Of a DNA stretch of 44,536 nt, positions 18,993 through 32,336 are shown piece by piece. A program made the position numbers and the translations under genes. Position 1 is the stretch's first letter; each line of letters begins with the position of its first letter. The stretch lies in assembly GCA_900544985.1 (NCBI GenBank), contig UQXK01000011.1, positions 1-44,536 of the forward strand. Direction: 5' to 3'. This stretch comes from an uncultured Eubacteriales bacterium. Lineage in GTDB: Bacteria; Bacillota; Clostridia; Oscillospirales; CAG-272. Under the pieces are notes generated by a model, which saw only the letters and a list, made by a program, of their open reading frames with translations, had not been told where the DNA came from and did no database searches.

Positions 18993-19038
18993 AAAATATA
19001 AATCAGACATACTATAAAAAGTATGTCTGATTTTATTT
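18993..19038. terminator. bidirectional rho-independent terminator ending the minus-strand 6-gene operon
   Basis: The sequence aaatcagacatactataaaaagtatgtctgattttatttttt is a 13-bp perfect stem, A-rich on the 5' side and T-rich on the 3' side. Confidence 0.75.
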
Positions 19039-19039
19039 T

Positions 19040-19492
19040 TTATTCTTGCTCTGACATAGTCATATCCGTCAACGGCTGTAAAAGCTTTACCATATCATCA
19101 TCAATAAGTTCATTAAACATAAATTGGACATAATCAACAACTGATTTGGCAGAGAAAATATTGATTGCAGAATGACTTACACGTAAATACTCGTTCTCGG
19201 GATTAATATTTACAGATAAAAACAAGCTCTCCGAATTAAAGGTATTGGAAAGGATAAGAGGTGTCTCACTTATAAAAAGCTTATCAAAAATAAAATCCAA
19301 GAAAACCATTCCGCTCTCGTAAGCATTTATGATCATATCGAATTCACCTTTATAATCATCGCAACTAAATCCTGCAACAGTAACTTTCAAACAATTTGGT
19401 TCAAAAGTCATTTGAAAATTTGGTTTCGGCCAATTCTCATATTGACCAAAATATTTTTTTAATTCGTTTTGGCACTCTAAAAGATTAAGCAT
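19040..19492 (-). CDS. hypothetical cytoplasmic protein (150 aa), last gene of the TIR/protease/SPFH operon
   Basis: ORF with an AAAGGA RBS, 34 nt after the protease stop. No recognisable domain. Confidence 0.5.
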   Translation of the reverse strand: MLNLLECQNELKKYFGQYENWPKPNFQMTFEPNCLKVTVAGFSCDDYKGEFDMIINAYESGMVFLDFIFDKLFISETPLILSNTFNSESLFLSVNINPENEYLRVSHSAINIFSAKSVVDYVQFMFNELIDDDMVKLLQPLTDMTMSEQE

Positions 19493-19526: not shown

Positions 19527-20504
19527 TTATTCTCCATGTTCTTTACCACAATCAGGACAGTGTATTATGTGATTTTGGTTAGTTGCATTATTGCTTCCGC
19601 ATTCCGGACATGTTGCAGGTTTAATTTGACTCCACCCTTTCGCCCCTCTGTTTTCGATTATATAAGGACTATCTTTTCTTGATAAACACATATTTAACAA
19701 CTTATAGGCATAATTTGACGGAACTGCGTAATTTGTGCCGTTATCAAGGTCATTTTTATCAAAGCCGCTGTCTAAAACACCAATTACATTAGCATCTTCG
19801 TCAAAAACAGGTCCACCGGAATTACCATGAAAAGCCGCGCAATCAACTAAAAGATGAGGCTTGCCATCATTACGTCTAGGTCGTAATTTATCACTCAAAA
19901 TTCCCATTGAGATACAAGTTCCTTCTCCATTTGCATTTCCGACAATATAAATTGTTTGCCCTGTGCGAAGTTTGTTTGAATCCGCAAAATTAAGTACCCT
20001 TGCATTGTGAGGAACACGTTGAAGTTTCAAAACAGCAATATCCTGATACTCGACTTCTCTTGTGCTCCATCCGACAGCGACAACAGTGGCCGGAATTTTT
20101 TCACCGCATATTTTAGCTATCATATTATTGTAAATACGTCTGCCATCGGTAACACAATGTGAACAAGTTATCATAAAACCGCTGTTATGAACAAGAAAAG
20201 CACTACCACTTCCACAATCAAAGTATATCTCAGCAACTCCATTTACCACCTTGCTGTATAAGGCATCGCCCGCCATTTTCATTGACGGTGAATCCTTCTC
20301 GATCGGAAATGTTGGGGAGGTAATCATAGGTCTTCTTTCAGTAGTCGGATATGTCGGTGAATCATATGAAAAAGAAGGCGTCATATTAAGTTTTGAAGTT
20401 TGCATTTTTGAATTATTATTAGGATTTACAGTTTCCCCGCAATATGGGCAATAATAAGAATTTCCCATCGGCACCATCATCATGCCGCAAGAACTACAAT
20501 TCAT
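19527..20504 (-). CDS. trypsin-like (S1/chymotrypsin fold) serine protease flanked by N- and C-terminal zinc-ribbons
   Basis: Catalytic triad context: TCSHCV (His), QDIAVLKL (Asp), GNSGGPVF (Ser). CxxCG...CPYCG lies at the N-terminus and CPECG...CPDCG at the C-terminus. AGGAGG lies 5 nt before the ATG. Confidence 0.75.
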   Translation of the reverse strand: MNCSSCGMMMVPMGNSYYCPYCGETVNPNNNSKMQTSKLNMTPSFSYDSPTYPTTERRPMITSPTFPIEKDSPSMKMAGDALYSKVVNGVAEIYFDCGSGSAFLVHNSGFMITCSHCVTDGRRIYNNMIAKICGEKIPATVVAVGWSTREVEYQDIAVLKLQRVPHNARVLNFADSNKLRTGQTIYIVGNANGEGTCISMGILSDKLRPRRNDGKPHLLVDCAAFHGNSGGPVFDEDANVIGVLDSGFDKNDLDNGTNYAVPSNYAYKLLNMCLSRKDSPYIIENRGAKGWSQIKPATCPECGSNNATNQNHIIHCPDCGKEHGE

Positions 20505-20526: not shown

Positions 20527-22305
20527 CTAAAATACCAGTGAAGAAATTACGCATAGAGCTAATGTAATTATAAAAGCAAGTAAAAATCTTGATTTTAAAC
20601 TTGTCTCTTTTTCAGCTAAAATTCGTTTTATATCTCTTATAACAAGTAAGACGTTTATAATTATAGAAGCGCCTATTCCTATCGTGCTTAATGAATCCTG
20701 AAAAATCCAGCCCGGTATCAAAAATCCTAATGCAAATCCGCCAAAAGCCAAAGCTATTGTCAATATTATTTTTAATAATGACGATAACGTACTGCCAACA
20801 CCGGAAACTATATCTCCGACGCCGCTTGATTTTCTGCCGTACTTCATTACTTCTTCATGCTTTCTTTGAGCATCATTGGCCTTGTATTCTGCTTCTTTTT
20901 CAGCCTGTGCCTTGGTTTCGGCTATAGCATTATTGAGAGTCCTCTTATATGTATTATAAGTGGACATTTCACCCGGACAAGCTTTATCCAATTCACCCAT
21001 GGATAATGAAGTTTTACGAACTAAATCTTCATATTTTGCATTTAATTTTGACATCAAATCCTGTAATTTGTTTGACTTATCAGCTGTGCTAAAAGCGCCT
21101 TCAAAACCGCTATATGTTGTCCTTGTATAATTATCAGTCATTGCACGGGTATATAAATAAACGACTCTTGGATCTATTTCCGCTTGTTTATAAGCTATAT
21201 ACAGATCGATCTCCTTCATAATTGTCTTATAATTGGATTGTCCGCTTATAATCGAAGCATTCCACTCATATAATTTGTCCTCTAATTTGTCAGTACTCGG
21301 ATTATATGTTGGTGCATTGCCGCCAATTCCAAGACCACCTAATATACCTCCGAAAGATTTATTTTGAGAACCGACAGCTTTTATAAAACTCTTCTTTTTG
21401 ATAACACTGTCAATGGATTTTTGTAAATCTCCGAGAAAATCTACCGAGCCATATTCTACACCTTGAAATTTTCGCAGCTTCGCAGGAAGAGCATTAGCCT
21501 CCATACCGCCTAGCATAACAGGAATAACAACGCCGTCTTTCTTTTTTCCCGAATCGATCTGAGACAAAAATCTTGTCCATTCGTTTTTCACCCATTTTGC
21601 ATTAAAATATTCCTCTTTTGAACCGCAAACAAGCATAACTTTTGCCGTATCCAACGCATTATAGATATAAGGCTCATATTTTTTGCCTTGATGCTCAATC
21701 ATACTTTCACGGCTGAAAAACACGCTGTATCCTTTTTCTTTCAGCTTATGATAAAGACTGAGTAAATCGTTACTGTCCTGCGTTCTGGATCTTGACTCAT
21801 CATCGTTTTTGTCTTTATATGATATGAAAACATCATATGCGCCTTCTGTCTTCCTTACATTTTTCCATTCTGCCGCATTATCTTCGATAATGGAAATCTG
21901 CTTAAAATAATATTCTTTCTTTTCATCAGGGGCTTTTTCGCAGGCTTTTTTAAAGTTTGAGTTATTTCTCAAACTTTCTCCCGGAATATCGGCAAAAGTC
22001 GGAACCATCTTTTTGCCACCGTCATCGACATACACAATTTTATTTTGTGCCAAAAATTTCGCCCAGTAAGCCTCATAAGCATCAGTATGGTCAGCTATAT
22101 AAATATCCATCATATTTTCGGCAACATCGAATTCCATTTCTGAAATTTTAGCCATTGCTCTTTTTATTTCAGTAATATTATTTTCTTCCGCATTTTTAAC
22201 CTTGTATGTATTACCGCACCCCTCGCAATAATATGTATCGCCATTTATAATAACCATCTGTGTTCCACACGATGAACACGTCATCATTTCAGTTCTAAGT
22301 TCCAT
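20527..22305 (-). CDS. Zn-ribbon / TIR-domain protein with coiled-coil region and C-terminal 3-TM membrane anchor
   Basis: YDVFISYKDKNDD...KVMLVCGSKEEYFNAKWVKNEWTRFL is a TIR signature and includes a Glu at the catalytic-Glu position. N-terminal CSSCG...CEGCG ribbon. C-terminal hydrophobic helices. GAGGTGA lies 5 nt before ATG 22303-22305. The track's TTG extension is rejected. Confidence 0.75.
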   Translation of the reverse strand: MELRTEMMTCSSCGTQMVIINGDTYYCEGCGNTYKVKNAEENNITEIKRAMAKISEMEFDVAENMMDIYIADHTDAYEAYWAKFLAQNKIVYVDDGGKKMVPTFADIPGESLRNNSNFKKACEKAPDEKKEYYFKQISIIEDNAAEWKNVRKTEGAYDVFISYKDKNDDESRSRTQDSNDLLSLYHKLKEKGYSVFFSRESMIEHQGKKYEPYIYNALDTAKVMLVCGSKEEYFNAKWVKNEWTRFLSQIDSGKKKDGVVIPVMLGGMEANALPAKLRKFQGVEYGSVDFLGDLQKSIDSVIKKKSFIKAVGSQNKSFGGILGGLGIGGNAPTYNPSTDKLEDKLYEWNASIISGQSNYKTIMKEIDLYIAYKQAEIDPRVVYLYTRAMTDNYTRTTYSGFEGAFSTADKSNKLQDLMSKLNAKYEDLVRKTSLSMGELDKACPGEMSTYNTYKRTLNNAIAETKAQAEKEAEYKANDAQRKHEEVMKYGRKSSGVGDIVSGVGSTLSSLLKIILTIALAFGGFALGFLIPGWIFQDSLSTIGIGASIIINVLLVIRDIKRILAEKETSLKSRFLLAFIITLALCVISSLVF

Positions 22306-22319
22306 TTTTGTCACCTCAA

Positions 22320-23018
22320 TCAATATATTTTACAAGCTTTGCATTTATGGTTTCTTTCATCAAAAAGACGGGAAATATCTCTGGATAATGCTATTGCTGT
22401 TTCTTCATCAGCATTCTTCGCCGTTTCAAGTAATTGCAATATCTCAGTTTCCAAGTTTTCCGTGTCGGCTATACTTACAGGATCACTGTAAATATATTTT
22501 TTATATAATTCTCCGTATGATGATTTGATTTTTTCACTGGATCCATGTTTGCTTAGTATTTCCATCTGCAATGTTACGTTTTTTATAAATTTCGTATTAT
22601 CTATAACATTTGTTCTGACGCTTTCCACTTTTTCCTTATAAGCAAAACCTGAAAAAGCAAAAACAGAAAAAACGACAAGAACAATAACCTGCGGTATCAT
22701 GGCTAAGGCAAACGGTATTTTTTTGCTTATGCAAATAAATATAGTGGATATTATAAATTCAACGCCAAAATATATAGCGCTGTGTTTATAAAGAGGAATT
22801 CTAAATATCCAGTCGCACGCTTCATTAAGTCTCGAACGAAAGAAAATGAAAATCGTTTCTATAAATAAAAACGATATACATTCAAAAACAAAAGATACCC
22901 AAAACACCGAATTATGCCCCGAAAACCCAGCGATAGAAAAAACGGTTATCGCATAGATCGCCATAAAAATTGGGGGCAGTATAAACGATATACTTAATTT
23001 ATTCTTTTTGTCTTTCAT
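22320..23018 (-). CDS. integral membrane protein (4 TM + C-terminal soluble domain), hypothetical
   Basis: AGGAGG lies 5 nt before the ATG. The start overlaps the upstream gene's stop (ATGA). Four hydrophobic helices. Confidence 0.6.
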   Translation of the reverse strand: MKDKKNKLSISFILPPIFMAIYAITVFSIAGFSGHNSVFWVSFVFECISFLFIETIFIFFRSRLNEACDWIFRIPLYKHSAIYFGVEFIISTIFICISKKIPFALAMIPQVIVLVVFSVFAFSGFAYKEKVESVRTNVIDNTKFIKNVTLQMEILSKHGSSEKIKSSYGELYKKYIYSDPVSIADTENLETEILQLLETAKNADEETAIALSRDISRLFDERNHKCKACKIY

Positions 23019-23299
23019 GTTGCCTCCTTTTCAGGCACTTTTGCAGCACCGCATTTTTCACAAAAATTTTTATAGTTTTTTTCTCCGCATTTTTTGCAAA
23101 TCCACAAAATTTCTATCGTTTCACTTTGTTGCCCCATTGTCTTTTCCAGATTTGTTTCCATCGTTAAGGGCTGCGGTTTTGCCTCAATTGCTTTATTCAT
23201 TTTTTCCATACTTTCTCTGACAAAAGAGCGTCTTTCATCACAATTATTTTTTATCAAAGGCTCTCCTCTGGGAGAAAATTCAAATTTTTCGTATTTCAT
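23015..23299 (-). CDS. small zinc-ribbon protein (94 aa)
   Basis: C-terminal CKKCGEKN...CEKCG. GAGGTGA RBS. Translationally coupled to the downstream gene. Confidence 0.6.
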   Translation of the reverse strand: MKYEKFEFSPRGEPLIKNNCDERRSFVRESMEKMNKAIEAKPQPLTMETNLEKTMGQQSETIEILWICKKCGEKNYKNFCEKCGAAKVPEKEAT

Positions 23300-23323: not shown

Positions 23324-25303
23324 TTATTGTTCTTTTTCAGATTGTTTTTCTTTACCGCACTCGTTGCAAAATTTTCCTGTGTTTTCAGCTCCGCATTCGC
23401 ATTTCCATTTCTGCGGTTTTGATTTGCCACACTCGCTGCAAAACTTTCCTGTGTTTTCAGCTCCGCATTCACATTTCCATTTCTGCGGTTTTGATTTGCC
23501 GCACTCACTGCAAAAATTCCCTGTGTTTTCAGCTCCGCATTCACATTTCCAGGAATCATCTTTTGATTTATTCTCTGTTTTTTTGAATGAATTTTGTCTT
23601 TCATCATCGTTTTCGTTCATGACATTGTTGACTTCTTTGGCAACGTTTTTCCCTACTGCTTTTCCTATTTGCCAGTCCATTATCATGCCGCCCAAATTAT
23701 TAAATGTTCCCCCATTACCTCCGGAACCGTAAAATCCTCCACCCATACTTGGACCTCCTACTCTGCTGCCAACTTTACCGATAGCTTCTGCTCTTGCTAT
23801 ATCCACTTCTGCTCCCAGAACATCCTTGCCGTCATAATTCATTTCACGCATAGCCTGAGCATGACCAAGTTCTTTATGTATCTCTATGTCGGCTTCCGCT
23901 CCTTGCTTATAGATTTCGGAATCCGCTTCCATCATTCTTCTTGCATTTTCAAGCTGTAATTCAGTCATTTCAGCTTCTGTCTTATTGGCAAGTTCCGCAG
24001 AAGCTCTTATGGCATTCACGGTTGCCTCTCCTGAAACTCCCGCTACATTTAGATCATTTTGTCTTTGAATCTGATTACGTGCACCGGCAGCCGCCACTTC
24101 ATTAAGTTTGTCCTGTGCTTTCATAGTAACTATACCAAGATCCGTATCCTCCTGAATATTAAACGCCTCACGACGTCTTTGCAAATATTTTTGGAACGTC
24201 TCATCATTTTCGGGAAGCTGGATTTTTGATACAGCAAAATCAACAAGAGTTAATCCGAATTTCTCAAACTCCGTAGCTATAAGTTTCGAAATTATTTCTC
24301 CGAATTCCACAAGGTTATTTTCTATTACTACTATGTCAAGCTTGTTGTCCATTATCAAACGAGAAAAATTCTGTTTGATAATAGGCTGTATTCTGTTAAG
24401 CAAAATTTTTTTCGGAGGATTTTTTATAGGATCTATCCCGTATTTTCTCAGTTCATCAACATCCGGATTAAAAAGATCCATAGTACGAAGATTATCTGCA
24501 TTAGCGCCAAATTCCTTTAAGATTTGTCTGGAATTTGCTATCTGCAAACTAAGTTCTCCGCTAAGACCTATCTGAAAAGGTATATTTCCCATATTGGCAT
24601 CACGATAAGTTATACCGCCGATTCCCCATTTTATCCCTCTGATACAAGATGTATTAAAGAAATACACCTTAGACAAAAAAGGCGTTTGTCCATCAGGAGG
24701 TAATGCATTCATGCCAACTAACATAGGAATATTTTCTGTATTCAGAGTGTGAGTGCCCGGACCAAATAAATCAAGAGGTTGTCCGCCAAGTACAAAAACG
24801 ACTTCCTGAGAAGGTCCTACAATCAATTGAGAGCCCATATTTATCTTTTCAATAGTGTGCTTATATGAGAGAAAGTTAGAATCTCCTTCATATTTTATAA
24901 CACTGATAGAATTAGGATCATACTGACTGTTTATAGCGATTTCTCTTTTTACATCTATATGAGTACCGCATCCGGGACAATCCGCATATTGTTCGGAATT
25001 ACCGTTCAATCTGACAGATATACTCATATTACATTTTGGACATAAGATCTGTACACGTTTATTAAAAACATCATTTGCAGATTCATTTGCGGAAAATGTT
25101 TTTTTACAGTTTGAACACTTTATATTTTCCAAACCGAATTTATAAAGTCCCGTCTTTCCGCAATGCGGACACTCTATTTTAGCCATTCTCTCCTGTTTGA
25201 CATTTACAATTTTTCCGCAATGATCGCATTTTGCTGTCTTGCTGAATGTTGATACATAGATATCCGAGTTACAATCAGGACAAGTAATTATAATTTTTGC
25301 CAT
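23324..25303 (-). CDS. SPFH/band-7 (flotillin/YdjI-like, COG4260-type) protein with three N-terminal and three tandem C-terminal zinc-ribbons
   Basis: SPFH core (VVFVLGGQPLDLFGPGTHTL...). Coiled-coil/Ala-Glu-rich region. Gly-rich linker. C-terminus with 3x WKCECGAENTG(K/N)FCxECGK. N-terminus with CPDC/CDHC, CPHC/CSNC, CPKC/CPGC pairs. AGGAGG lies 8 nt before the ATG. Confidence 0.75.
   Translation of the reverse strand: MAKIIITCPDCNSDIYVSTFSKTAKCDHCGKIVNVKQERMAKIECPHCGKTGLYKFGLENIKCSNCKKTFSANESANDVFNKRVQILCPKCNMSISVRLNGNSEQYADCPGCGTHIDVKREIAINSQYDPNSISVIKYEGDSNFLSYKHTIEKINMGSQLIVGPSQEVVFVLGGQPLDLFGPGTHTLNTENIPMLVGMNALPPDGQTPFLSKVYFFNTSCIRGIKWGIGGITYRDANMGNIPFQIGLSGELSLQIANSRQILKEFGANADNLRTMDLFNPDVDELRKYGIDPIKNPPKKILLNRIQPIIKQNFSRLIMDNKLDIVVIENNLVEFGEIISKLIATEFEKFGLTLVDFAVSKIQLPENDETFQKYLQRRREAFNIQEDTDLGIVTMKAQDKLNEVAAAGARNQIQRQNDLNVAGVSGEATVNAIRASAELANKTEAEMTELQLENARRMMEADSEIYKQGAEADIEIHKELGHAQAMREMNYDGKDVLGAEVDIARAEAIGKVGSRVGGPSMGGGFYGSGGNGGTFNNLGGMIMDWQIGKAVGKNVAKEVNNVMNENDDERQNSFKKTENKSKDDSWKCECGAENTGNFCSECGKSKPQKWKCECGAENTGKFCSECGKSKPQKWKCECGAENTGKFCNECGKEKQSEKEQ
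23343..23542. repeat. three near-identical tandem 72-bp repeats (coding, 24-aa Zn-ribbon units of the SPFH protein)
   Basis: Directly visible: ...gcaaaa(t/c)tt(t/c)cctgtgttttcagctccgcattc(g/a)catttccatttctgcggttttgatttgcc... repeated three times with few substitutions. Confidence 0.85.
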
Positions 25304-25490: not shown

Positions 25491-25519
25491 AAATAAAAAG
25501 GCGTGCTAAATTGCACGCC
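25491..25519 (-). terminator. rho-independent terminator (minus-strand orientation) inside invertible segment
   Basis: ggcgtgc-taaatt-gcacgcc stem followed by TTTTTATTT on the minus strand. It would stop read-through from the recombinase gene. A second, opposite-facing AT-rich hairpin plus T-run lies at 25525-25565. Confidence 0.55.
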
Positions 25520-25705: not shown

Positions 25706-26545
25706 CTAAGTTCGCAAAAGTCCCAATTTTTCAACCTGACGACGATGCACCTCGCCGCTCTCCATAGTATAAATACGGGTTGTGTTTATGCTGCTGTGCC
25801 CAAGTATATCTGCAAGCCTTACGATATCTTTCTGTATACTGTAATATGTCCTTGCGAACAAATGTCTTAAATTATGCGGAAACACTTTTTTCTCAGATAC
25901 GTTCGCAGATTTGCAGAGCTTTTTCATATCAGACCATATATTCGATCTATCAAGAGGTCTTCCGTTCTTTGTAACAAAAATCGGTCCGCTTGATATTTTT
26001 TTCTTTTTTATATATTCTTTTAGCATCTTACAAAGTGCAGCAGGCAAAAATATGAGCCTACGTTTCCCCTTACAGATTATTTCTGTATTCTGTCGCGTCA
26101 AAGAATCAACGGTAATATGTTTAAGCTCGGAAATTCTTATTCCGCATGAACATATCGTCTGCATCAGAAAATACAACCGATCGTTTTTCTCTCTTTTTGC
26201 CGCCAATAAAAGACGTTCATACTCACTCTTTGTAAGCTCCTTATCACCGGATAAAAATATCTGCTTTTGAACTTTCAAAGTTTTTACTTTCAGTTCATGC
26301 CACTGCATAAAAACAAAAAAGCTATTAAGTGATGAGATAATAGAATTAACACTGGTCGGAGCATATTTTTCGGATATTTCCGACTTATATTTCAGAACAT
26401 CACTTTTATTAAACTCATTTGCACTAAGCCAATTCGCAAAAGTTAATATATCGTGCATATATTTACAAATCGTCGCGTGTGATTTTTCTTCATTTGAAAG
26501 ATGTTCTTTGAACATTTCTAAATTTTGATTTGAAATTTTTCTCAT
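25706..26545 (-). CDS. tyrosine site-specific recombinase (small, invertase/Xer-like)
   Basis: C-terminal catalytic motifs HNLRHLFA and GHSSINTTRIYT (catalytic Tyr). Length ~280 aa with no arm-binding extension. GGAGG...AAAGGGG RBS lies before the ATG at 26543-26545 (MRKISNQ). The track's longer 5' extension is unlikely. Confidence 0.8.
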   Translation of the reverse strand: MRKISNQNLEMFKEHLSNEEKSHATICKYMHDILTFANWLSANEFNKSDVLKYKSEISEKYAPTSVNSIISSLNSFFVFMQWHELKVKTLKVQKQIFLSGDKELTKSEYERLLLAAKREKNDRLYFLMQTICSCGIRISELKHITVDSLTRQNTEIICKGKRRLIFLPAALCKMLKEYIKKKKISSGPIFVTKNGRPLDRSNIWSDMKKLCKSANVSEKKVFPHNLRHLFARTYYSIQKDIVRLADILGHSSINTTRIYTMESGEVHRRQVEKLGLLRT

Positions 26546-26838
26546 TTGTTTAATCCCCTTTCTCCTCCATTTTATCATACTTGTATAAAGATTACAGCGC
26601 TCGTTAATCAACTCAGACAAAACGATGAGCAGACTTTACGACCACAAATAAAGTGGAAATAAAGTCTGATTTTTTGTTGTCCAAATCGCTTTTGCTATCC
26701 ATTTCTACAAATAAAGGTAATAAACCCCCAAAAATTTAAATATTTTTTCCTCAATAATATAACCTTTTGAGTGCACACAAGACCCGTTGATGCGTTTACG
26801 TCACAATACTTATTGGGTATAATCATAACATAAATGTT

Positions 26839-27231
26839 ATGGAGGAACGCACAGGGATGAATTCTTCATTAAGCAAAAAATCTTTTGGTGCACTTATACG
26901 GAAATTTCGTCTTAAAAACGGATATACTCAACAACAGCTTGCATTAAAAATCGGAATACAAACAAAATCCATAAGCTTTATCGAAAGAGGAATAAACTAT
27001 CCCTCTCCCGAAAATATTTTTAAGTTGGCACAGGTTCTTAATATATCTCTTGATGAATATATTTTCGGTTATTGCAAATTCGATCCCACTATCAATAATG
27101 ATGAAATAAATTCTATGTTTAATTCTCTCTCCAACGAAGACCTGCATTTTATGATAACTATGTTAAAAACTATTTATGGTCTACTTAATGAAAGGAAACC
27201 TGTCGTTAAAAATACCGGAAATAAAATATGA
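26839..27231 (+). CDS. XRE-family HTH transcriptional regulator (possible start at 26857)
   Basis: GYTQQQLALKIGIQTKSISFIERG is a Cro/C1 HTH. Divergent from the recombinase gene. Confidence 0.7.
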   Translation: MEERTGMNSSLSKKSFGALIRKFRLKNGYTQQQLALKIGIQTKSISFIERGINYPSPENIFKLAQVLNISLDEYIFGYCKFDPTINNDEINSMFNSLSNEDLHFMITMLKTIYGLLNERKPVVKNTGNKI

Positions 27232-27752
27232 ACTCTTTACAAGAAATAACTTTTGATGACGCATATAAAATGTTTCATCCCAAAATTCTGCAATATTGTT
27301 ATTATAAAACGAACCATAACATGAATATTGCGGAAGAGATATCTCAGGAAGCATTTTTAGCCTTGTATCTATCCTGGGATAAACTGTATTTCCACTCCAA
27401 AGCCCTGATTTTTTCTTGGCTTCACAAAACTGCCAAAAATATGTTGTCAAAATATTTCAGACAATTAAAGAAACTCAGTAATACAATAAGCTATGATGAA
27501 TATTTTTCCCAATATCAGGATATCGGAGTTTCCGATGATAATTTGGAAAACCTCGATCTTTCATATGAAAAATATATTGAAGAGATCAAAAAATTCCTTT
27601 CTCCCGAAGATTTTCAACTTTTTACATATGCCTGTATCGAGAAACTCTCTATCATTCAGATTTCCCTTCTCTTAAATATCAATTTTAATACTGCCAAGTC
27701 TCGCATAAGACGCATGAAATCCAAACTTAAACTCTTTTTATCAGATTTTTAA
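27228..27752 (+). CDS. ECF-type sigma-70 family RNA polymerase sigma factor
   Basis: Region-2-like (ISQEAFLALYLSW) and region-4 HTH (LSIIQISLLLNINFNTAKSRIRR). Size ~170 aa. Confidence 0.65.
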   Translation: MNSLQEITFDDAYKMFHPKILQYCYYKTNHNMNIAEEISQEAFLALYLSWDKLYFHSKALIFSWLHKTAKNMLSKYFRQLKKLSNTISYDEYFSQYQDIGVSDDNLENLDLSYEKYIEEIKKFLSPEDFQLFTYACIEKLSIIQISLLLNINFNTAKSRIRRMKSKLKLFLSDF

Positions 27753-27844
27753 TCCGATAAAAATTTTTTAAAATATATGCACCCAAAATTCATTTTTTGG
27801 TATTATATATATGAGTCCGATACGCGAGAAATTGAGGATACAAA

Positions 27845-28696
27845 ATGGAAACAAACAAAATTTCAAACAGTTCTAATCAAAAACAAATTGACGAACTTAT
27901 GAAAAAAATCGAAAAAGAGCTTAGTAAGCCGGAAAATAAAATCGACATGAAACTTGTCGATAGTTATTTTGAGCAAATCGAAGAACTGAATGGAGGGATA
28001 TGCAAAAAAACAGATTCCGAGCTGGCGAAAGGACTTAATCAAATAAAAGAACAGGGTGATCGAATAAAAAAGACTCTTCCTACCGTTGCTCCTATGAAAA
28101 CGCAACCAATCAAAAGAACTATTCCTCTACGCAAACGTCTTGCAATCTCATTTGCAGCTGTATTTTTGGTAATTGCGCTGTCATTCTCCGTTGCCGCAGC
28201 TTCTCTCGGCGGATTCAGTAAAGCATGGATATACATTTCAAATTCCGTAAAAGAAATTTTCGGCATGGATTCCGGCGAAACAGAAATGGACGGCATTACT
28301 GTTATAAAAGGCAAATACAGCAAAAAATACAATACTATTGAAGAACTTTTGTCAAATGAGAACTTCGATGATATATTATATCCTTCAAAATTGCCGGAAA
28401 ATATAAAAATAAAGTCCGTCTCTCAAATTCAACTGAACGACGAACAATATACCTTAACATTTCAATTTAATTCAGATAATGTGAGGCTTCGTATTAATAA
28501 CTACTACGAAATTAATCTCTCTCTATTATCCGACTATACAATATATCAAGCAAACGGAATAGAATTTTATATATTACAAAAAGAAGACGGATATTATTCT
28601 ATCGCCCAATATGACGGAAAAGAATATTCCGCAAACTGCAATAACTACGAAGATCTGATCTATATTTTATCTAACATGAAAGGCTATTCTAAATGA
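27845..28696 (+). CDS. putative anti-sigma factor (cytoplasmic N-domain, single TM, extracytoplasmic domain)
   Basis: Topology, and position immediately after the ECF sigma gene. Confidence 0.45.
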   Translation: METNKISNSSNQKQIDELMKKIEKELSKPENKIDMKLVDSYFEQIEELNGGICKKTDSELAKGLNQIKEQGDRIKKTLPTVAPMKTQPIKRTIPLRKRLAISFAAVFLVIALSFSVAAASLGGFSKAWIYISNSVKEIFGMDSGETEMDGITVIKGKYSKKYNTIEELLSNENFDDILYPSKLPENIKIKSVSQIQLNDEQYTLTFQFNSDNVRLRINNYYEINLSLLSDYTIYQANGIEFYILQKEDGYYSIAQYDGKEYSANCNNYEDLIYILSNMKGYSK

Positions 28697-29082
28697 AAAA
28701 ATTTTTTGTTTTTATAATATCCGCAGTCCTCATACTTTCTATATGTTTTTCATCGACTGCCGCAAATATCCAATATACATATAATTACGGTAATGTAAGC
28801 GTAATATTTAATGACAATACCCATTTTTCGGAAGCTTCCCGCGAACATATAGCCGATATACTTGTCGGAAAAATTGGAGCGGATTCCGAAATCGAACCAT
28901 ATGGCATAGCCTGTCTTTTCGGTCATAAATATGTTACGGAAAATGTAATCACAATAACTCATTGTGTAAGTGAGACACAACCGAAATGCCTGAAAGAAAT
29001 TTTCGAAATAAGCGAATGTTCACGTTGCGGAAAAACAAAGACAGAAAGAATTGATTACTATTATATCACTTGCTGCCCGTAA
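28693..29082 (+). CDS. secreted small cysteine-rich protein (signal peptide; 129 aa)
   Basis: N-terminal MKKFFVFIISAVLILSICFSSTAA signal peptide. Seven Cys in the C-terminal half. Start overlaps the anti-sigma stop. Confidence 0.5.
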   Translation: MKKFFVFIISAVLILSICFSSTAANIQYTYNYGNVSVIFNDNTHFSEASREHIADILVGKIGADSEIEPYGIACLFGHKYVTENVITITHCVSETQPKCLKEIFEISECSRCGKTKTERIDYYYITCCP

Positions 29083-29108
29083 TATAGAATAATAAAAATA
29101 TAACAAAA

Positions 29109-29146
29109 ACAGGAAACAAATTGTTCCCTGTTTTTTTGTTTTTTAA
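29109..29146 (+). terminator. rho-independent terminator after the ECF-sigma operon
   Basis: aacaggaaacaaattgttccctgtttttttgtttttt is an imperfect stem plus a long T-run. Confidence 0.6.
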
Positions 29147-29356
29147 TAATGACCGCACAAATGTTTTTTATATTTTCCGGTTGATAAAAAGTGACTTATT
29201 AAAAACTTTTTCAAATACCGTACCGTCATTTTGCTTTTCAGTCAAATCATCTATATATCCGCCGCGTACAACAGTGCGAAGAGCTCCGTGAAGTAGTTAT
29301 CTAACAAGTGTGTATTCCCTGTCGTCTTATAAGCATATATATAATATGTACTCAAA

Positions 29357-29698
29357 TTATACTGAATATGGGCGTCTGTAATTTTCAATAATTTTTTCAA
29401 ACAAAAAATTCTCTTCCGTTGAAAGTTTACTTTCCGAAATACTTTTCACTTTGATCAAAAGGGATATTTCCTCCGGCGTCATATATGCACGGTCCATCGT
29501 GTAATCGCCTACCACATATACTCCTCCGCCATATTTCCCTGCTTTTGTATCCAGAGGCATCATAAAAGTAAGTTCAAAAATATCTCTCTGTATTGTTCTC
29601 ACGGAAACACCGAATTTTTCGGCAAGAAAAGACATTGTCGCGTGCCTTTTTCTGCAAAGGTATTTCATGATTTCCAAACGTCTTTCGGCTGTCCCCAT
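29357..29698 (-). CDS. small HTH-domain protein (DeoR/WYL-N-terminal-like HTH), solitary paralog of 43852-44220
   Basis: MGTAERRLEIMKYLCRKRHATMSFLAEKFGVSVRTIQRDI. Clear paralogy to the protein at 43852-44220 (shared MGTAERR, GVSxRTIxRDI, GxYxGGVYVxxDYxMxRxYM). Confidence 0.6.
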   Translation of the reverse strand: MGTAERRLEIMKYLCRKRHATMSFLAEKFGVSVRTIQRDIFELTFMMPLDTKAGKYGGGVYVVGDYTMDRAYMTPEEISLLIKVKSISESKLSTEENFLFEKIIENYRRPYSV

Positions 29699-29835
29699 AA
29701 ATCACTTCCTTTCGCACAAACAAAAACATGACAAACAGCCAAACCAGCCACCTGTCATGCTCATATCTTAAAAATCGTGCGATGTACGAAGTGTTTTTAT
29801 CTTAAATTTTTATACTTTTCCAATAACTGAAAAAG

Positions 29836-30039
29836 TCAAACTATTATTGCAGAATCGTCTATTTTGTAAACTGTATTCTCATTTGAAATCTTTACTGCCA
29901 AAACATTCTTGCAGTTTTTGCATTTTATGATTATATCAGCTTTTTCGGAATTACTGTCCGATAATTTTGATATTGTTATCGTTTTATTTGAATCACAAGC
30001 TCTTCTGTTGCATATAGGACAAGGATACTCTTTTATCAT
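29836..30039 (-). CDS. small zinc-finger protein, phage Mu Com-like (67 aa)
   Basis: CPICNRRA...IKCKNCKN are two CxxC pairs in a ~65-aa protein. The call is tentative. Confidence 0.35.
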   Translation of the reverse strand: MIKEYPCPICNRRACDSNKTITISKLSDSNSEKADIIIKCKNCKNVLAVKISNENTVYKIDDSAIIV

Positions 30040-30113
30040 TTAATTCCTCCAATTTATTCGCAATTTTGCGAACACGCACGGCGAAAAATATATGGTGAAC
30101 AAACACCATATAT

Positions 30114-30872
30114 TTAAGTATATCGATATTTATTTTTAATAATGCCCAAATTAAGCATTCTTATCTGTACAGCCTTGCAAGATACCTGAAAAACATTTGC
30201 AATATCAGCGATAATACTGTTCAAACGCTTTTTCTCGGAAAATGTTTCGGGAACCGAAATATATTTTCCGCTTATTCCGTTCTTGCTCATTATCTTGTAC
30301 GTATAATTCACAAATACATTCATCGGCATAAGCAACGATGCCGCAAGAGCATCTGCCTGCCATTCGATCCAATCGTTATCCGTGATATTTTTCGTCTTAT
30401 TCAGTTCTACACTACGGCACGCTATATACGAAGACGAATCGCCGACCCGATTTCTTAAATTCTCGTTTTTTCTGCCATAATACGCTTTGTGCAAAATAAA
30501 ATGTGCCCCCTCATGCATCTGCGTATAACGTCGTCTGGTATACTGATCTATATTGTATAACGCAGGTGTGATCAGAATATTTCCAAAAGTCTCCTCCAAA
30601 ATGACAGGTTTAAACATATCATCATATGAAGGAATCTCAACGATATCGCTCATAACGATAAGTCCCAAAATTTTGGAGCCGAAAGGACCTATATATTTGC
30701 ATTTTACAACAAGACCGAGATAGTTTTCCAAAAAATCAACAGTATCCAAAGATGTCGGACGTTCAAGGTTTTGCGGAGCATATTCTCGGATAACACTGTC
30801 TGCAATATTTTCAATGTCATTTTTGGAGAGAATATAAAGACCGTTTTCTTTTTGAACGTACTCTGATTTCAT
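30114..30872 (-). CDS. ImmA/IrrE-family metallo-endopeptidase (DUF955)
   Basis: HEGAH is an HExxH motif, in YTQMHEGAHFILH context. Immediately downstream of an XRE gene. Confidence 0.7.
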   Translation of the reverse strand: MKSEYVQKENGLYILSKNDIENIADSVIREYAPQNLERPTSLDTVDFLENYLGLVVKCKYIGPFGSKILGLIVMSDIVEIPSYDDMFKPVILEETFGNILITPALYNIDQYTRRRYTQMHEGAHFILHKAYYGRKNENLRNRVGDSSSYIACRSVELNKTKNITDNDWIEWQADALAASLLMPMNVFVNYTYKIMSKNGISGKYISVPETFSEKKRLNSIIADIANVFQVSCKAVQIRMLNLGIIKNKYRYT

Positions 30873-30894
30873 AAAAAGGCACCTCAATAATACT

Positions 30895-31284
30895 TTAAGA
30901 GTTTTTTTGTTTGATAAACTTTATAAGTTCCATCCAGTCTTCATCGGTAAAATTATTGTCTTTTGCAGTTCGAAGCGCCATGCGTGCAGACGGCAATGAT
31001 TCAATATATTCATTGATATCGCTGTGCTGTCCGTTTTGGCTTATGCCTGCCAAATCGTAAAAAGTATTCAATTCATCGGTATCGGTAATTTCCAAGGCAC
31101 TTGCAAAAGTTTCGAGAAATTTTTCCGGGGCATGACGATTTCCCTTTTCTATATCACATAAATAAGCCGGTGATATCTTCACTTTTTCGGCAAAACCTCT
31201 TAAATTAAACCCAAGTTCCTCTCTTCTTTGTCTGACATATTCACCGAACGGTGAACTTACTTCCTTCATAACGGTATTCCCCAT
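30895..31284 (-). CDS. XRE-family HTH regulator (ImmR-like partner of ImmA)
   Basis: GFNLRGFAEKVKISPAYLCDIEKGNR is an HTH. Its stop is 7 nt from the ImmA start. Confidence 0.7.
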   Translation of the reverse strand: MGNTVMKEVSSPFGEYVRQRREELGFNLRGFAEKVKISPAYLCDIEKGNRHAPEKFLETFASALEITDTDELNTFYDLAGISQNGQHSDINEYIESLPSARMALRTAKDNNFTDEDWMELIKFIKQKNS

Positions 31285-31475: not shown

Positions 31476-32276
31476 TTATAATTCAGGTAAAATTTCAGGG
31501 AAAGAAAGCACTGATTTATCAGACGAATCGATTGCTATTATATATTTTTCGGACAATTTCGCATAACTTAATTTCGGAGCTTCACAAATAACTTTTTCAA
31601 AAAGTTTTTTTGCAGTGTCCTTATCTCCCGAATAATATTTTATAGCAGCAGTGTAAAAAACCTGACTCATCTTAATAATATTACTTGTTTTTGAAGTTTG
31701 TTTGTTAAATAAATCTTCTAATATTTTTTTGCATTCATCGAAATCTTCTTTTAAATAGCTTTCGAATAATTTTATAGTATTATCTTTTATTTTTTTCGCG
31801 CTATCCTTTTCATAGTTTCTGAATTTTTCACAAACTGTTTTTAATTTCTCATTGTCTCCAATATCAAAATAGACTCGCGAAAGTATCAAAAAATAATCAT
31901 ATTTATATTTTAAACTGCGCTTTCCTTTAATTACATTTGTGCACATATTTACTGCCATTTGATAATTTCCGGAATAATAGTAGTAAAGTACACGATATAA
32001 TTCACTCCTGCACATAATACATATTTTAGAATTTATTATCAAACCAAATTTTTCCGGATCCATATCTTTACACAAAACCGGCATATATAATTTTGCCTCT
32101 AATACCATGGTAAAAACAAGAAGCATAAAACCAAGAAAAATCAATAAAACAAGATATGCCCAAAATTTATCAAAAAAAATAATTTCCAATGCAATTAGCG
32201 ACATCATCAATAGAAAAAATATTGTCATCAAAACAAAATATTTCCTAATAATACTTTTAGCACTCTTATTATTCAT
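31476..32276 (-). CDS. multi-pass membrane protein with TPR-like C-terminal region; putative immunity protein for the RHS toxin
   Basis: Position directly downstream of the RHS C-terminal toxin domain. Three or four TM helices. The start is probably at MNNKSAKS. Confidence 0.5.
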   Translation of the reverse strand: MNNKSAKSIIRKYFVLMTIFFLLMMSLIALEIIFFDKFWAYLVLLIFLGFMLLVFTMVLEAKLYMPVLCKDMDPEKFGLIINSKICIMCRSELYRVLYYYYSGNYQMAVNMCTNVIKGKRSLKYKYDYFLILSRVYFDIGDNEKLKTVCEKFRNYEKDSAKKIKDNTIKLFESYLKEDFDECKKILEDLFNKQTSKTSNIIKMSQVFYTAAIKYYSGDKDTAKKLFEKVICEAPKLSYAKLSEKYIIAIDSSDKSVLSFPEILPEL

Positions 32277-32336
32277 AAATCCCCCTATAAAATTATTGCA
32301 CAAAAATTTATACCACAAAATCACCTATGATTTTAA

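What the first reader, a model, noticed from the sequence alone, without database searches (positions are those of the whole stretch)
20527..22305. TIR domain fused to N-terminal zinc-ribbon and C-terminal triple-TM anchor, with catalytic-Glu context retained
TIR signature blocks are present (DVFISYKDKND; VMLVCGSKEEYFNAKWVKNEW). The Glu of ...WVKNEW aligns with the catalytic Glu of NADase-competent TIRs in the SxWCxxEL block. A TIR tethered directly to the membrane by its own C-terminal helices is unusual. It suggests the TIR acts at the membrane, for instance together with the SPFH scaffold, or that NAD+ cleavage is coupled to membrane events.
Basis: partly seen in the sequence, partly recalled or inferred. 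Interest (0 to 1): 0.7.

Follow-up and report, generated by a model that had tools for sequence, protein, structure and literature searches.

The report
Membrane-anchored TIR enzyme with SPFH partner
The gene encodes a real TIR-domain protein with its catalytic glutamate intact, anchored in the membrane, and it belongs to a large unstudied family from gut Clostridia whose genes sit next to an SPFH scaffold gene and a four-helix membrane protein gene in about half of the loci examined, which points to an undescribed membrane-based TIR system.

Summary
Window 20527-22305 (minus strand) encodes a 592-aa protein with five parts:
- a 4-Cys zinc ribbon;
- a TPR-like helical/hairpin module;
- a TPR-like helical region;
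- three C-terminal transmembrane helices.

Glu242 (WVKNEW) is invariant in 76 relatives and aligns with the catalytic Glu of the plant TIR RUN1.

The architecture is not rare. The N-terminal ZnR module plus TIR defines at least 1,645 clusters at 50% identity, mostly in gut and rumen Clostridia. About 78% carry transmembrane helices after the TIR. Many have a TLR-like layout: cytosolic TIR, one TM, extracellular LRR.

The main new result is a conserved cassette. In 39 of 80 species-level loci, a cytosolic multi-ZnR SPFH (Band_7_1, YdjI-like) gene lies on the same strand within 2 kb of the TIR gene. It is usually followed at once by an uncharacterised 4TM protein, which is window gene 22320-23018.

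I found no described system that matches. The most likely role is a membrane-platform-controlled, NAD+-cleaving TIR effector or signal generator. Enzyme activity and biological role are untested.

The parts
20527..22305 (-). ZnR-TIR-helical-3TM protein (592 aa), the finding itself
   Evidence: ORF and RBS; Pfam TIR_2; AF2 model with mean pLDDT 80
22198..22284 (-). N-terminal 4-Cys zinc ribbon (aa 8-36; C10, C13, C27, C30)
   Evidence: The four Cys are invariant in 76 relatives. It is 52% identical over 31 aa to the N-terminal ZnR of the neighbouring protease.
21847..22185 (-). Family-specific TPR-like helices plus beta-hairpin module (aa 41-153)
   Evidence: pLDDT 80-97. F59, W81 and P102 are invariant. 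Found at the N-terminus of 1,645 clusters; a TIR follows it in 137 of the 146 best hits checked.
21400..21837 (-). TIR domain (aa 157-302)
21580..21582 (-). Codon of Glu242, the predicted catalytic residue within W238-V-K-N-E-W243
   Evidence: Invariant; aligns with the Glu of RUN1 'WCLDEL' and Roq1 'WCLEEL'; coordinates checked
20830..21285 (-). Cytosolic helical (TPR-like) region, aa 341-492, after a Gly-rich disordered linker (aa 305-333)
20533..20796 (-). Three C-terminal transmembrane helices (aa 504-532, 540-564, 568-591)
   Evidence: Hydropathy; AF2 helices
23324..25303 (-). Cytosolic SPFH scaffold (659 aa): N-terminal zinc-ribbon array (CxxC pairs at aa 8-112), Band_7_1 SPFH domain, coiled coil, Gly-rich linker, three 24-aa C-terminal ZnR repeats
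   Evidence: Pfam Band_7_1 E=1.5e-29; no TM segment; homologues lie next to ZnR-TIR genes in 39 of 80 loci
23015..23299 (-). 94-aa protein with a C-terminal ZnR resembling the SPFH C-terminal repeats; specific to this lineage
   Evidence: BLASTP 50% identity over 26 aa to the SPFH repeats; HMM hits in only 3 of the 90 loci then held
22320..23018 (-). 4TM protein (232 aa) with a cytosolic helical C-terminal domain; third conserved cassette component
   Evidence: Homologues found in 33 of 80 loci; in 30 of the 32 loci that have both genes they start -22 to +67 nt after the SPFH stop. Motifs YSDPVS and ERNxxCKxxK. AF2 model. No family or fold match.
19527..20504 (-). Cytosolic ZnR - trypsin-like (HtrA-type catalytic domain, no PDZ) - ZnR protease; lineage-specific accessory
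   Evidence: Pfam Trypsin_2 E=2e-26; NCBIfam DegP/HtrA partial hits; PADLOC hits to protease domains only
19040..19492 (-). 150-aa acidic protein of unknown family, last gene of the operon
   Evidence: No hit in Pfam, PADLOC or NCBIfam; followed by a bidirectional hairpin terminator at 19000-19033
25500..25519 (-). Terminator-like hairpin that separates the integrase gene from the operon start

Best explanation
The gene encodes the membrane-anchored, catalytically competent TIR subunit of a conserved three-part membrane module.

Shown:
- a TIR fold with an invariant WxxNE(W) active-site motif;
- a cytosolic ZnR/TPR-like N-terminal module found almost only with this TIR;
- a three-helix membrane anchor;
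- conserved, co-directional adjacency to a cytosolic multi-zinc-ribbon SPFH (Band_7_1, YdjI/SamI-like) gene and to a 4TM protein gene that follows the SPFH gene almost without a gap.

Inferred:
- The 4TM protein recruits the TM-less SPFH protein to the membrane, as YdjG/H recruit YdjI in B. subtilis. The SPFH assembly then forms a sub-membrane platform.
- The ZnR-TIR protein is held in or next to this platform through its ZnR/TPR-like module and its own TM helices.
- A membrane or envelope perturbation (phage attack, pore formation or envelope stress) changes how the TIR proteins are packed. Their TIR domains then self-associate, which is what switches on other TIR enzymes.
- The active TIR cleaves NAD+. 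The result is either NAD+ depletion (growth arrest, abortive-infection type) or an ADP-ribose-derived signal.
- In this lineage the ZnR-tagged trypsin-like protease, which shares a homologous ZnR, would be a second output docked on the same platform.
For: - TIR fold and active site.
- Membrane anchor.
- SPFH linkage in independent lineages: the window and L001, L004 at 27% identity, L006 (13), L007 (14), L009 (15), L098 (92), and 2 of 3 IMG/VR contigs (97).
- Linkage statistics: 39 of 80 species-level loci have the SPFH gene. All 39 are on the same strand, with a median gap of 488 nt and a maximum of 1,940 nt. The 4TM gene starts within about 70 nt of the SPFH stop in 30 of the 32 loci that have both genes. 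By my own rough estimate, a YdjI-type SPFH gene would fall in a 20-kb window by chance about 1% of the time.
- The SPFH proteins lack TM segments. YdjI/SamI is a cytosolic SPFH protein recruited by membrane proteins into a stress-sensing complex (PMC8581546; bioRxiv 10.64898/2026.02.06.704340).
- ZnR homology between the TIR protein and the protease.
- Six genes with very short gaps, bounded by terminators.
- Island context: integrase, Rhs toxin, ImmA/IrrE, low GC.
- In E. coli, 12 of 32 tested TIR loci defend against phage, and this depends on active-site residues (PMC11350192).
Against: - No enzymatic or phenotypic data exist for any member.
- The conserved Glu is also present in the TLR TIR that aligned, so it does not prove NADase activity.
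- The TIR, SPFH and 4TM proteins gave no PADLOC match better than weak zinc-ribbon or low-score hits (E above 1e-4).
- There is no tblastn hit in 50,697 phage records or 72,556 plasmid records, and only 3 IMG/VR contigs carry a relative.
- Genes flanking the cassette in other genomes are mostly housekeeping.
- About half of the family's genes have no SPFH gene nearby.
- Tandem arrays of up to six paralogues are atypical for a suicide effector.
- No receptor for a TIR-made nucleotide is present in the operon.
- Physical interaction of the three proteins is inferred from gene order only.
Confidence: 0.45

Rival explanations
1. Non-lethal transmembrane signalling (a TLR-like reading). The family would be a receptor/adaptor set. 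Paralogues with extracellular LRR, Flg_new or SBP domains sense outside cues, and the cytosolic TIR makes a nucleotide signal or recruits partners. The SPFH/4TM pair is the signalling platform. The window's protein has no ectodomain and would act as an adaptor or co-receptor.
For: - Many relatives have a cytosolic ZnR-TIR, one TM at about aa 315-330 and LRR_5/Flg_new/SBP domains after it.
- Tandem paralogue arrays carry different C-terminal domains.
- Flanks are housekeeping genes, and the family is absent from the phage and plasmid collections.
- B. subtilis SamGHI is described as a membrane stress-sensor complex.
Against: - No downstream receptor or transcription factor is conserved in the cassette.
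- The window's protein has essentially no extracellular part.
- No bacterial TIR is known to me to act as a non-immune signalling receptor (own knowledge).
Confidence: 0.25
2. Envelope-homeostasis module related to the PspA-YdjGHI (SamGHI) system. SPFH and 4TM maintain membrane integrity, and the TIR protein is a regulatory or metabolic accessory rather than an immune effector.
For: - Band_7_1 SPFH with C-terminal zinc ribbons is the YdjI architecture (PMC11237479).
- The SPFH protein is cytosolic.
- Neighbourhoods elsewhere are housekeeping.
Against: - No PspA/IM30, YdjG-type or TPM (YdjH) domain was found in the operon.
- The coiled-coil proteins in L007 gave no PspA hit.
- In this window the cassette lies in a low-GC island next to an integrase.
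- The invariant TIR active-site motif needs an enzymatic rationale.
Confidence: 0.15
3. The TIR domain is a non-catalytic protein-protein scaffold, as in MyD88 or TIRAP, used to oligomerise or sort membrane and surface proteins. SPFH would act as an assembly chaperone for these signal-peptide-less type II membrane proteins.
For: - Many relatives have very large extracellular domains and no obvious signal peptide.
Against: - W238, N241, E242, W243 and R245 are invariant across 76 sequences that share only 22-48% identity with the window protein over their full lengths.
- W.[KRQ]NEW is present in 125 of 137 representatives.
- Alignment is to the catalytic Glu of RUN1 and Roq1.
Confidence: 0.1
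4. Chance ORF, pseudogene or mis-called fusion.
For: None found.
Against: - The ORF is intact and has an RBS.
- The 90% cluster has 25 members, nearly all 592 or 581 aa among the 15 listed, and one short entry (402 aa) sits on a 2.4-kb contig.
- Full-length relatives exist at 45% and 27-29% identity with the same architecture.
- The AF2 model is confident.
Confidence: 0.01

Closest known systems
NAD+-cleaving TIR domains (SARM1; plant RUN1/Roq1; bacterial AbTir, ThsB, SpbK, TIR-STING, SPARTA TIR-APAZ)
   Different: Sequence similarity is only at superfamily level (best PDB sequence hit E=5.8e-6, to a TLR TIR). The domain partners are unique: an N-terminal ZnR/TPR-like module and a C-terminal 3TM anchor. 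None of the known activating partners is present (ARM/SAM, NB-ARC, STING, SAVED, Argonaute, ThsA). Activity is untested.
Thoeris (ThsB TIR plus ThsA effector), including NCBIfam 'Thoeris type III ThcB4'
   Same: A bacterial TIR protein in a multi-gene operon. There is a weak local NCBIfam hit to ThcB4 (22 bits).
   Different: The score is far below the cut-off (220 bits). PADLOC gave no hit to a Thoeris model. No SIR2, Macro or SLOG ThsA-like gene is in the operon.
E. coli TIR defence loci with TM or TPR partners (TIR-I to TIR-IX; PMC11350192)
   Same: TIR combined with TM and/or TPR elements. In those loci defence depends on the TIR active site.
   Different: The organisms differ (Proteobacteria versus gut Clostridia). 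No SPFH partner is described there. No sequence-level relation was tested. That paper states that TLR-like TM and LRR features seem absent from bacterial TIR systems, whereas relatives of this protein have them.
B. subtilis PspA-YdjGHI / SamGHI module (SPFH protein YdjI/SamI)
   Same: A TM-less Band_7_1 SPFH protein with C-terminal zinc ribbon(s), encoded next to small integral membrane proteins that are thought to recruit it.
   Different: No PspA, no YdjG-type (2xZnR, NTF2-like) protein and no TPM-domain YdjH are present. The partners here are a novel 4TM protein and ZnR-TIR proteins. The window's SPFH protein also has an N-terminal zinc-ribbon array (CxxC pairs at aa 8-112).
Animal Toll-like receptors and the Hydra membrane-anchored TIR protein TRR-2
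   Different: The order is inverted (TIR N-terminal, ectodomain C-terminal). There are three TM helices and no ectodomain in the window protein. A ZnR module is added. There is no evidence of common descent of the whole architecture.
SPFH-NfeD operons (stomatin/NfeD, YqiK/YqiJ, FloA/YuaF)
   Same: An SPFH gene is immediately paired with a small multi-TM partner gene.
   Different: The partner has no NfeD domain by Pfam, and its cytosolic part is all-helical in the model. The SPFH protein itself has no membrane anchor. The protease in the operon is trypsin-fold and cytosolic, not an NfeD/ClpP-type membrane protease.

Membership tests
TIR domain superfamily (Pfam TIR_2) | Sequence match above the curated threshold | tested here: met
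   52 bits against a cut-off of 28, E=1.2e-13
TIR domain superfamily (Pfam TIR_2) | Flavodoxin-like TIR fold | tested here: met
Catalytic (NAD+-cleaving) TIRs | Conserved catalytic Glu in the W-x-x-x-E context after beta-C | tested here: met
   E242 is invariant in 76 sequences and aligns with the Glu of RUN1 'WCLDEL' and Roq1 'WCLEEL'
Catalytic (NAD+-cleaving) TIRs | Measured NAD+ hydrolase or cyclase activity that depends on self-association | not testable with these tools
   Needs biochemistry. The Glu alone is not sufficient, because the aligned TLR TIR shares it.
Thoeris | ThsB-type TIR that matches curated models | tested here: not met
   NCBIfam ThcB4 22 bits against a cut-off of 220; PADLOC gave no hit to a Thoeris model
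Thoeris | Adjacent ThsA effector (SIR2 or Macro/TM plus SLOG) | tested here: not met
   None of the five operon neighbours has such a domain
Toll-like receptor architecture | Extracellular LRR domain, single TM, cytosolic TIR | tested here: not met
   The window protein has no LRR and has 3 TM helices. Relatives have TIR, 1 TM and LRR_5 in the inverted order.
YdjI/SamI-type SPFH stress module | Cytosolic Band_7_1 SPFH protein with a C-terminal zinc ribbon | tested here: met
   Band_7_1 E=1.5e-29; no TM; CxxC pairs at aa 598-649. This applies to the neighbouring gene 23324-25303.
YdjI/SamI-type SPFH stress module | Operon partners PspA, YdjG and YdjH (TPM domain) | tested here: not met
   No PspA_IM30 or TPM hit in any operon protein
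Known anti-phage systems in PADLOC-DB v2 | Any component matching a system model | tested here: not met
   Only the protease domain matches (RT-Protease_XI and LmuA protease parts). The TIR and SPFH proteins give only weak hits (Cas12f E=3.7e-4 on the ZnR; PDC-S64 E=2.1e-4), and the 4TM protein gives none.
SPFH-NfeD pair | NfeD-domain membrane partner | tested here: not met
   No Pfam hit for the 4TM protein; all-helical model

The most novel reading that the evidence does not exclude
Gut Clostridia would possess a large, unrecognised class of transmembrane TIR receptors.
- Each has a cytosolic ZnR-TIR head joined through the membrane to variable sensor domains (LRR, Flg_new, SBP, TPR) or, as in this window, to a bare 3TM anchor.
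- They work on a dedicated platform built from a cytosolic multi-zinc-ribbon SPFH scaffold and a novel 4TM protein.
- Surface or membrane events (phage adsorption, pore formation, contact with other cells) would be converted into TIR clustering and NAD+-derived output.

This would be a bacterial counterpart of Toll-like receptor signalling, and the first SPFH-dependent immune or signalling system in bacteria.
Probability: 0.3. Interest if true: 0.85.

Novelty: new variant of a known kind. Interest (0 to 1): 0.62.

Why it matters
TIR domains are a shared immune module of bacteria, plants and animals, but the characterised bacterial TIR systems I know of are mostly cytosolic.

- **A membrane-resident family.** At least 1,645 clusters at 50% identity carry this head. 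Their genes are coupled to an SPFH scaffold in about half of the loci examined. This would add a membrane-based way of controlling TIR enzymes.
- **A role for an SPFH class.** It would give a concrete function to the YdjI-like SPFH proteins, whose role is poorly understood.
- **A TLR-like layout in bacteria.** It would show that an LRR ectodomain, a TM helix and a cytosolic TIR do occur together in bacteria. A recent E. coli survey says these features seem absent from bacterial TIR systems.
- **Relevance to the gut.** The family is abundant in human and ruminant gut Clostridia, so it may matter for phage-host or host-microbe interactions there.
- **Testability.** The system is small (three core genes) and has a clear catalytic-dead control (E242A).

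Tried and rejected
- **PADLOC scan of all six operon proteins.** No system-level match; only protease-domain hits.
- **tblastn of the TIR protein against INPHARED phages and PLSDB plasmids.** No match. IMG/VR gave only 3 contigs, two of them with the SPFH gene alongside.
- **PDB sequence search with the full-length family profile (A1).** Misleading: misaligned LRR columns dominated, and only LRR proteins were hit. I redid it with a TIR-only profile (A2).
- **Cluster look-up for names or organism.** All six proteins are known only from unnamed metagenome or MAG entries. The host species was not identified.
- **4TM protein.** The word-indexed homologue searches found only 3 and then 9 relatives. 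The AF2 model (pLDDT 78) had no significant PDB fold match (best E=0.25). No family hit in Pfam, NCBIfam or PADLOC.
- **Guess that the coiled-coil proteins in L007 are PspA/ESCRT-III-like.** Not supported by Pfam.
- **Search for a recurrent fourth partner or defence genes around 37 cassettes.** The 91 neighbouring ORFs are heterogeneous and mostly housekeeping, with three resolvases.
- **Rfam scan of the whole window.** Nothing found. There are no tRNA genes.
- **Literature.** The searches 'SPFH + TIR domain + phage', 'SPFH + anti-phage' and 'PF13421' found no description of this association. The 'TIR' hits in the PSP paper refer to CesT/Tir chaperones, not TIR domains.
Full report
**1. Checking the observation**

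The finding's coordinates correspond to a minus-strand ORF, 20527..22305. Its ATG lies 7 nt after a GAGGTG ribosome-binding site. A TTG six codons upstream merely extends the ORF. The product is 592 aa and contains the quoted motifs, DVFISYK at aa 158-164 and WVKNEW at aa 238-243.

- **TIR domain.** Pfam TIR_2 matches aa 159-283 at 52 bits against a gathering score of 28 (E=1.2e-13).
- **Structure.** An AlphaFold2 model built on a 76-sequence alignment has mean pLDDT 80, and above 90 for aa 50-300.
- **Foldseek.** Against the PDB it returns the TIR domains of SARM1, TIR-STING, SPARTA TIR-APAZ (rmsd 2.2 A over 150 columns) and Hydra TRR-2 (TM-score 0.77 on the target).

The fold-based refutation test therefore fails to refute the finding.

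**2. Zinc ribbon, catalytic Glu and membrane anchor**

- **Zinc ribbon.** In the alignment of 76 relatives, which share only 22-48% identity with the query, C10, C13, C27 and C30 are invariant.
- **Active site.** D158, F160, K164, E211, P212, W238, N241, E242, W243 and R245 are also invariant.
- **Alignment to verified TIRs.** A TIR-only profile (A2) aligns W-v-k-n-e-W with RUN1 'RWCLDELVK'. The RUN1 chain 7s2z carries Ala at exactly this column, which I take from memory to be the E100A catalytic mutant. Roq1 'TWCLEELVK' aligns the same way. E242 is therefore the structural equivalent of the catalytic Glu, sitting in the W-x-x-x-E context.
- **Caveat.** The best sequence hit was a TLR TIR (7ylf, 'CWCQYELY') with the same Glu. 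The residue is necessary but not sufficient for NADase activity.
- **Membrane anchor.** Three hydropathy peaks coincide with model helices 504-532, 540-564 and 568-591. Basic residues before TM1 and in the TM2-TM3 loop fit an N-in, C-out topology (sequence). No dedicated TM predictor was available.
- **Between TIR and anchor.** A Gly-rich disordered linker (aa 305-333) is followed by a helical, TPR-like region (aa 341-492).

**3. The protein family**

The word-indexed search gave 750 hits.

- Only P0001 (98%), P0002 (45%) and P0064-66 (27-29%) are alike over the full length.
- All other hits share just the N-terminal half: ZnR at about aa 6, TPR-like helices with a hairpin, and a TIR with W[VILM][KR]NEW at about aa 232-236.
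- After that half come highly variable C-terminal parts. These are one TM at about aa 315-330 with LRR_5, Flg_new, SBP or DUF6273 domains; TPR repeats with 2-4 terminal TMs; or polytopic regions.

An exhaustive HMMER search with only aa 1-155 found 1,645 clusters at 50% identity with E<=1e-3, always at the protein N-terminus. Of the best 146 hits:

- 137 carry the TIR directly after the module;
- 107 of those 137 have at least one TM after the TIR;
- 125 of those 137 keep W.[KRQ]NEW.

Nearly all come from gut or rumen Clostridia such as Christensenellaceae, Oscillospiraceae, Acutalibacteraceae and Lachnospiraceae.

A membrane-tethered TIR is therefore the rule in this family, not an oddity. 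Many members have a TLR-like layout in inverted order. An E. coli TIR survey says such TM and LRR features seem absent from bacterial TIR systems (PMC11350192).

**4. Genomic context**

On the minus strand, six genes are packed with gaps of -4 to 34 nt:

| Window coordinates | Product |
|---|---|
| 25303-23324 | SPFH, 659 aa |
| 23299-23015 | 94-aa ZnR protein |
| 23018-22320 | 232-aa 4TM protein |
| 22305-20527 | TIR protein |
| 20504-19527 | ZnR-trypsin-ZnR protease |
| 19492-19040 | 150-aa unknown protein |

A terminator-like hairpin at 25519-25500 separates them from an upstream tyrosine recombinase gene. A strong bidirectional hairpin at 19000-19033 ends the row.

- The SPFH protein matches Band_7_1 (E=1.5e-29) and has no TM segment. 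It carries an N-terminal zinc-ribbon array (CxxC pairs at aa 8-112) and three C-terminal ones.
- The protease has an HtrA-type catalytic domain without PDZ.
- Its N-terminal ZnR is 52% identical over 31 aa to that of the TIR protein.
- The surrounding ~19-33 kb has low GC (0.30-0.37 against 0.40-0.46 outside). It also holds an ImmA/IrrE-HTH pair, a sigma/anti-sigma pair and, at its edge, a 1,907-aa Rhs protein.

**5. A conserved cassette**

Every long contig examined for diverse relatives carried a Band_7_1 SPFH gene within 0-3 genes of the TIR gene:

- L004 (P0065, 27% identity);
- L006 (two tandem TIR paralogues);
- L007 (a TIR-TM-LRR member);
- L009 (a TIR-TPR-TM member);
- L098.

The window's 232-aa protein is homologous to the gene beside the SPFH or TIR gene in L004 (30% identity, E=1e-22) and L009.

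I then scanned 80 species-level loci with HMMs built here.

- 39 loci have the SPFH gene. In all 39 it is on the TIR strand, at most 1,940 nt from the nearest TIR gene (median 488 nt).
- 32 loci have both the SPFH and the 4TM gene. In 30 of these the 4TM gene starts -22 to +67 nt after the SPFH stop.
- Among the 29 loci with at least 5 kb on both sides, 15 have the SPFH gene.
- TIR genes occur as one to six tandem paralogues.
- By my own rough estimate, chance would place such an SPFH gene in a 20-kb window about 1% of the time.
- The 91 other neighbouring ORFs are heterogeneous, mostly housekeeping.

The module is therefore self-contained: SPFH-ZnR, then 4TM, then one or more ZnR-TIR-X genes. 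The 94-aa protein, the protease and the 150-aa protein are lineage-specific additions.

The 4TM family shares the cytosolic motifs YSDPVS and ERNxxCKxxK. Its model shows four TM helices, with TM4 continuing into a long helix followed by a three-helix bundle. It has no fold or family match.

About half of the family's genes are 'orphans' among housekeeping genes (for example L094).

**6. Most likely mechanism**

Shown:
- a TIR with an intact, invariant active-site motif;
- a membrane anchor;
- a family-specific cytosolic ZnR/TPR-like head;
- tight, conserved gene linkage to a TM-less SPFH protein and a 4TM protein.

From the literature:
- The B. subtilis Band_7_1 protein YdjI/SamI is cytosolic. 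The membrane proteins YdjG/H recruit it into a membrane stress-sensing complex (PMC8581546; bioRxiv 10.64898/2026.02.06.704340).
- Bacterial TIR loci frequently defend against phage in an active-site-dependent way (12 of 32 tested loci in E. coli).

Inferred:
- The 4TM protein docks the SPFH oligomer under the membrane.
- ZnR-TIR proteins, and here also the ZnR-protease, associate with this platform.
- Membrane or envelope perturbation alters their packing, so that the TIR domains self-associate and cleave NAD+. This gives either NAD+ depletion or a nucleotide signal.

I put about 0.45 on this overall picture. Within it, I consider an anti-phage or abortive-infection role somewhat less likely than not, for these reasons:
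- no PADLOC system match;
- no match in the phage or plasmid collections;
- housekeeping flanks elsewhere;
- multi-paralogue arrays.

Rivals:
- a non-lethal TLR-like signalling system (0.25);
- a Psp-like envelope-homeostasis module (0.15);
- a purely scaffolding TIR (0.10).

**7. Comparison with known systems, and novelty**

The protein is a member of the TIR superfamily, with sequence, fold and catalytic-Glu criteria all met.

- **Not Thoeris.** ThcB4 scores 22 bits against a cut-off of 220, and there is no ThsA gene.
- **Not a TLR.** It has no LRR and has three TM helices.
- **Not the YdjGHI/PspA module.** The operon has no PspA and no TPM protein.
- **Not an SPFH-NfeD pair.** There is no NfeD domain.

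Full-text searches found no paper linking SPFH proteins with TIR domains or anti-phage systems.

I therefore rate it a new variant of a known kind: a TIR effector in a previously undescribed, widespread, SPFH-linked membrane context. The most novel reading not excluded by the evidence is a bacterial TLR-like receptor class on an SPFH platform.

**8. Verdict**

The domains, the Glu and the SPFH link are right. The claim of rarity is wrong. NADase activity is untested.
- Interest is moderate to high (0.62). This rests mainly on the conserved SPFH-4TM-TIR cassette and the size of the family, not on the single gene.

Noticed in passing
window 23344-23551: A 72-bp tandem repeat (2.9 copies, 91% matches) encodes the 24-aa C-terminal zinc-ribbon repeats of the SPFH protein. 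Members of its 90% cluster are 611, 635, 659 or 683 aa long, so the ZnR repeat number varies between strains.
   Followed up: partly
window 32337-38060 (-) and 31476-32324 (-): A 1,907-aa Rhs-repeat / Big_2 / DUF6531 protein, which looks like a polymorphic toxin. A 282-aa ORF lies directly downstream and could be its immunity protein.
   Followed up: no
window 25706-31284: Mobile-element or regulatory genes lie next to the cassette: a tyrosine recombinase (25706-26620 -), an HTH plus sigma-70 r2 plus TM anti-sigma-like set (26839-28696 +), HTH_11 (29357-29698 -), and an ImmA/IrrE M78 peptidase with HTH_31 (30114-31284 -). GC is 0.30-0.37 across about 19-33 kb and 0.40-0.46 outside, which suggests a genomic island. 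No att repeats or tRNA genes were found.
   Followed up: partly
L080 (2231-19186); also L031, L033, L085: Tandem arrays of ZnR-TIR paralogues, six in L080 and three in the others. Their C-terminal, probably extracellular, domains differ. This resembles a diversified receptor family.
   Followed up: partly
P0010, P0012, P0021, P0024, P0029 and others; L007 8001-10166: Many relatives have a cytosolic ZnR-TIR, a single TM at about aa 315-330 and then LRR_5, Flg_new or SBP domains. This is a Toll-like-receptor layout in inverted order, and I found no description of it in bacteria.
   Followed up: partly
window 19527-20504 (-) compared with 22198-22284 (-): The N-terminal zinc ribbon of the trypsin-like protease is homologous to that of the TIR protein (52% identity over 31 aa). 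Five of the six operon proteins carry zinc ribbons, which suggests a shared docking module.
   Followed up: no
window 19040-19492 (-): A 150-aa acidic protein with no match in Pfam, NCBIfam or PADLOC. HMM hits were found only in close relatives of this window (2 of 90 loci). Its role is unknown; it could be a chaperone, an inhibitor or an immunity protein.
   Followed up: no
L025 7641-8999; L039 8022-9992; L082 9491-9925: In some cassettes a shorter 4TM protein of 141-154 aa, not detected by the 4TM HMM, replaces the ~230-aa one. In L025 and L039, extra ZnR-only proteins of about 140-350 aa are also present. These look like variant cassette architectures.
   Followed up: no
L092 and L093 (IMG/VR contigs): Two of the three predicted viral contigs that carry a ZnR-TIR gene also carry the SPFH gene, and L093 carries the 4TM gene as well. 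The whole cassette can therefore sit on putative prophage DNA, although this is rare.
   Followed up: partly
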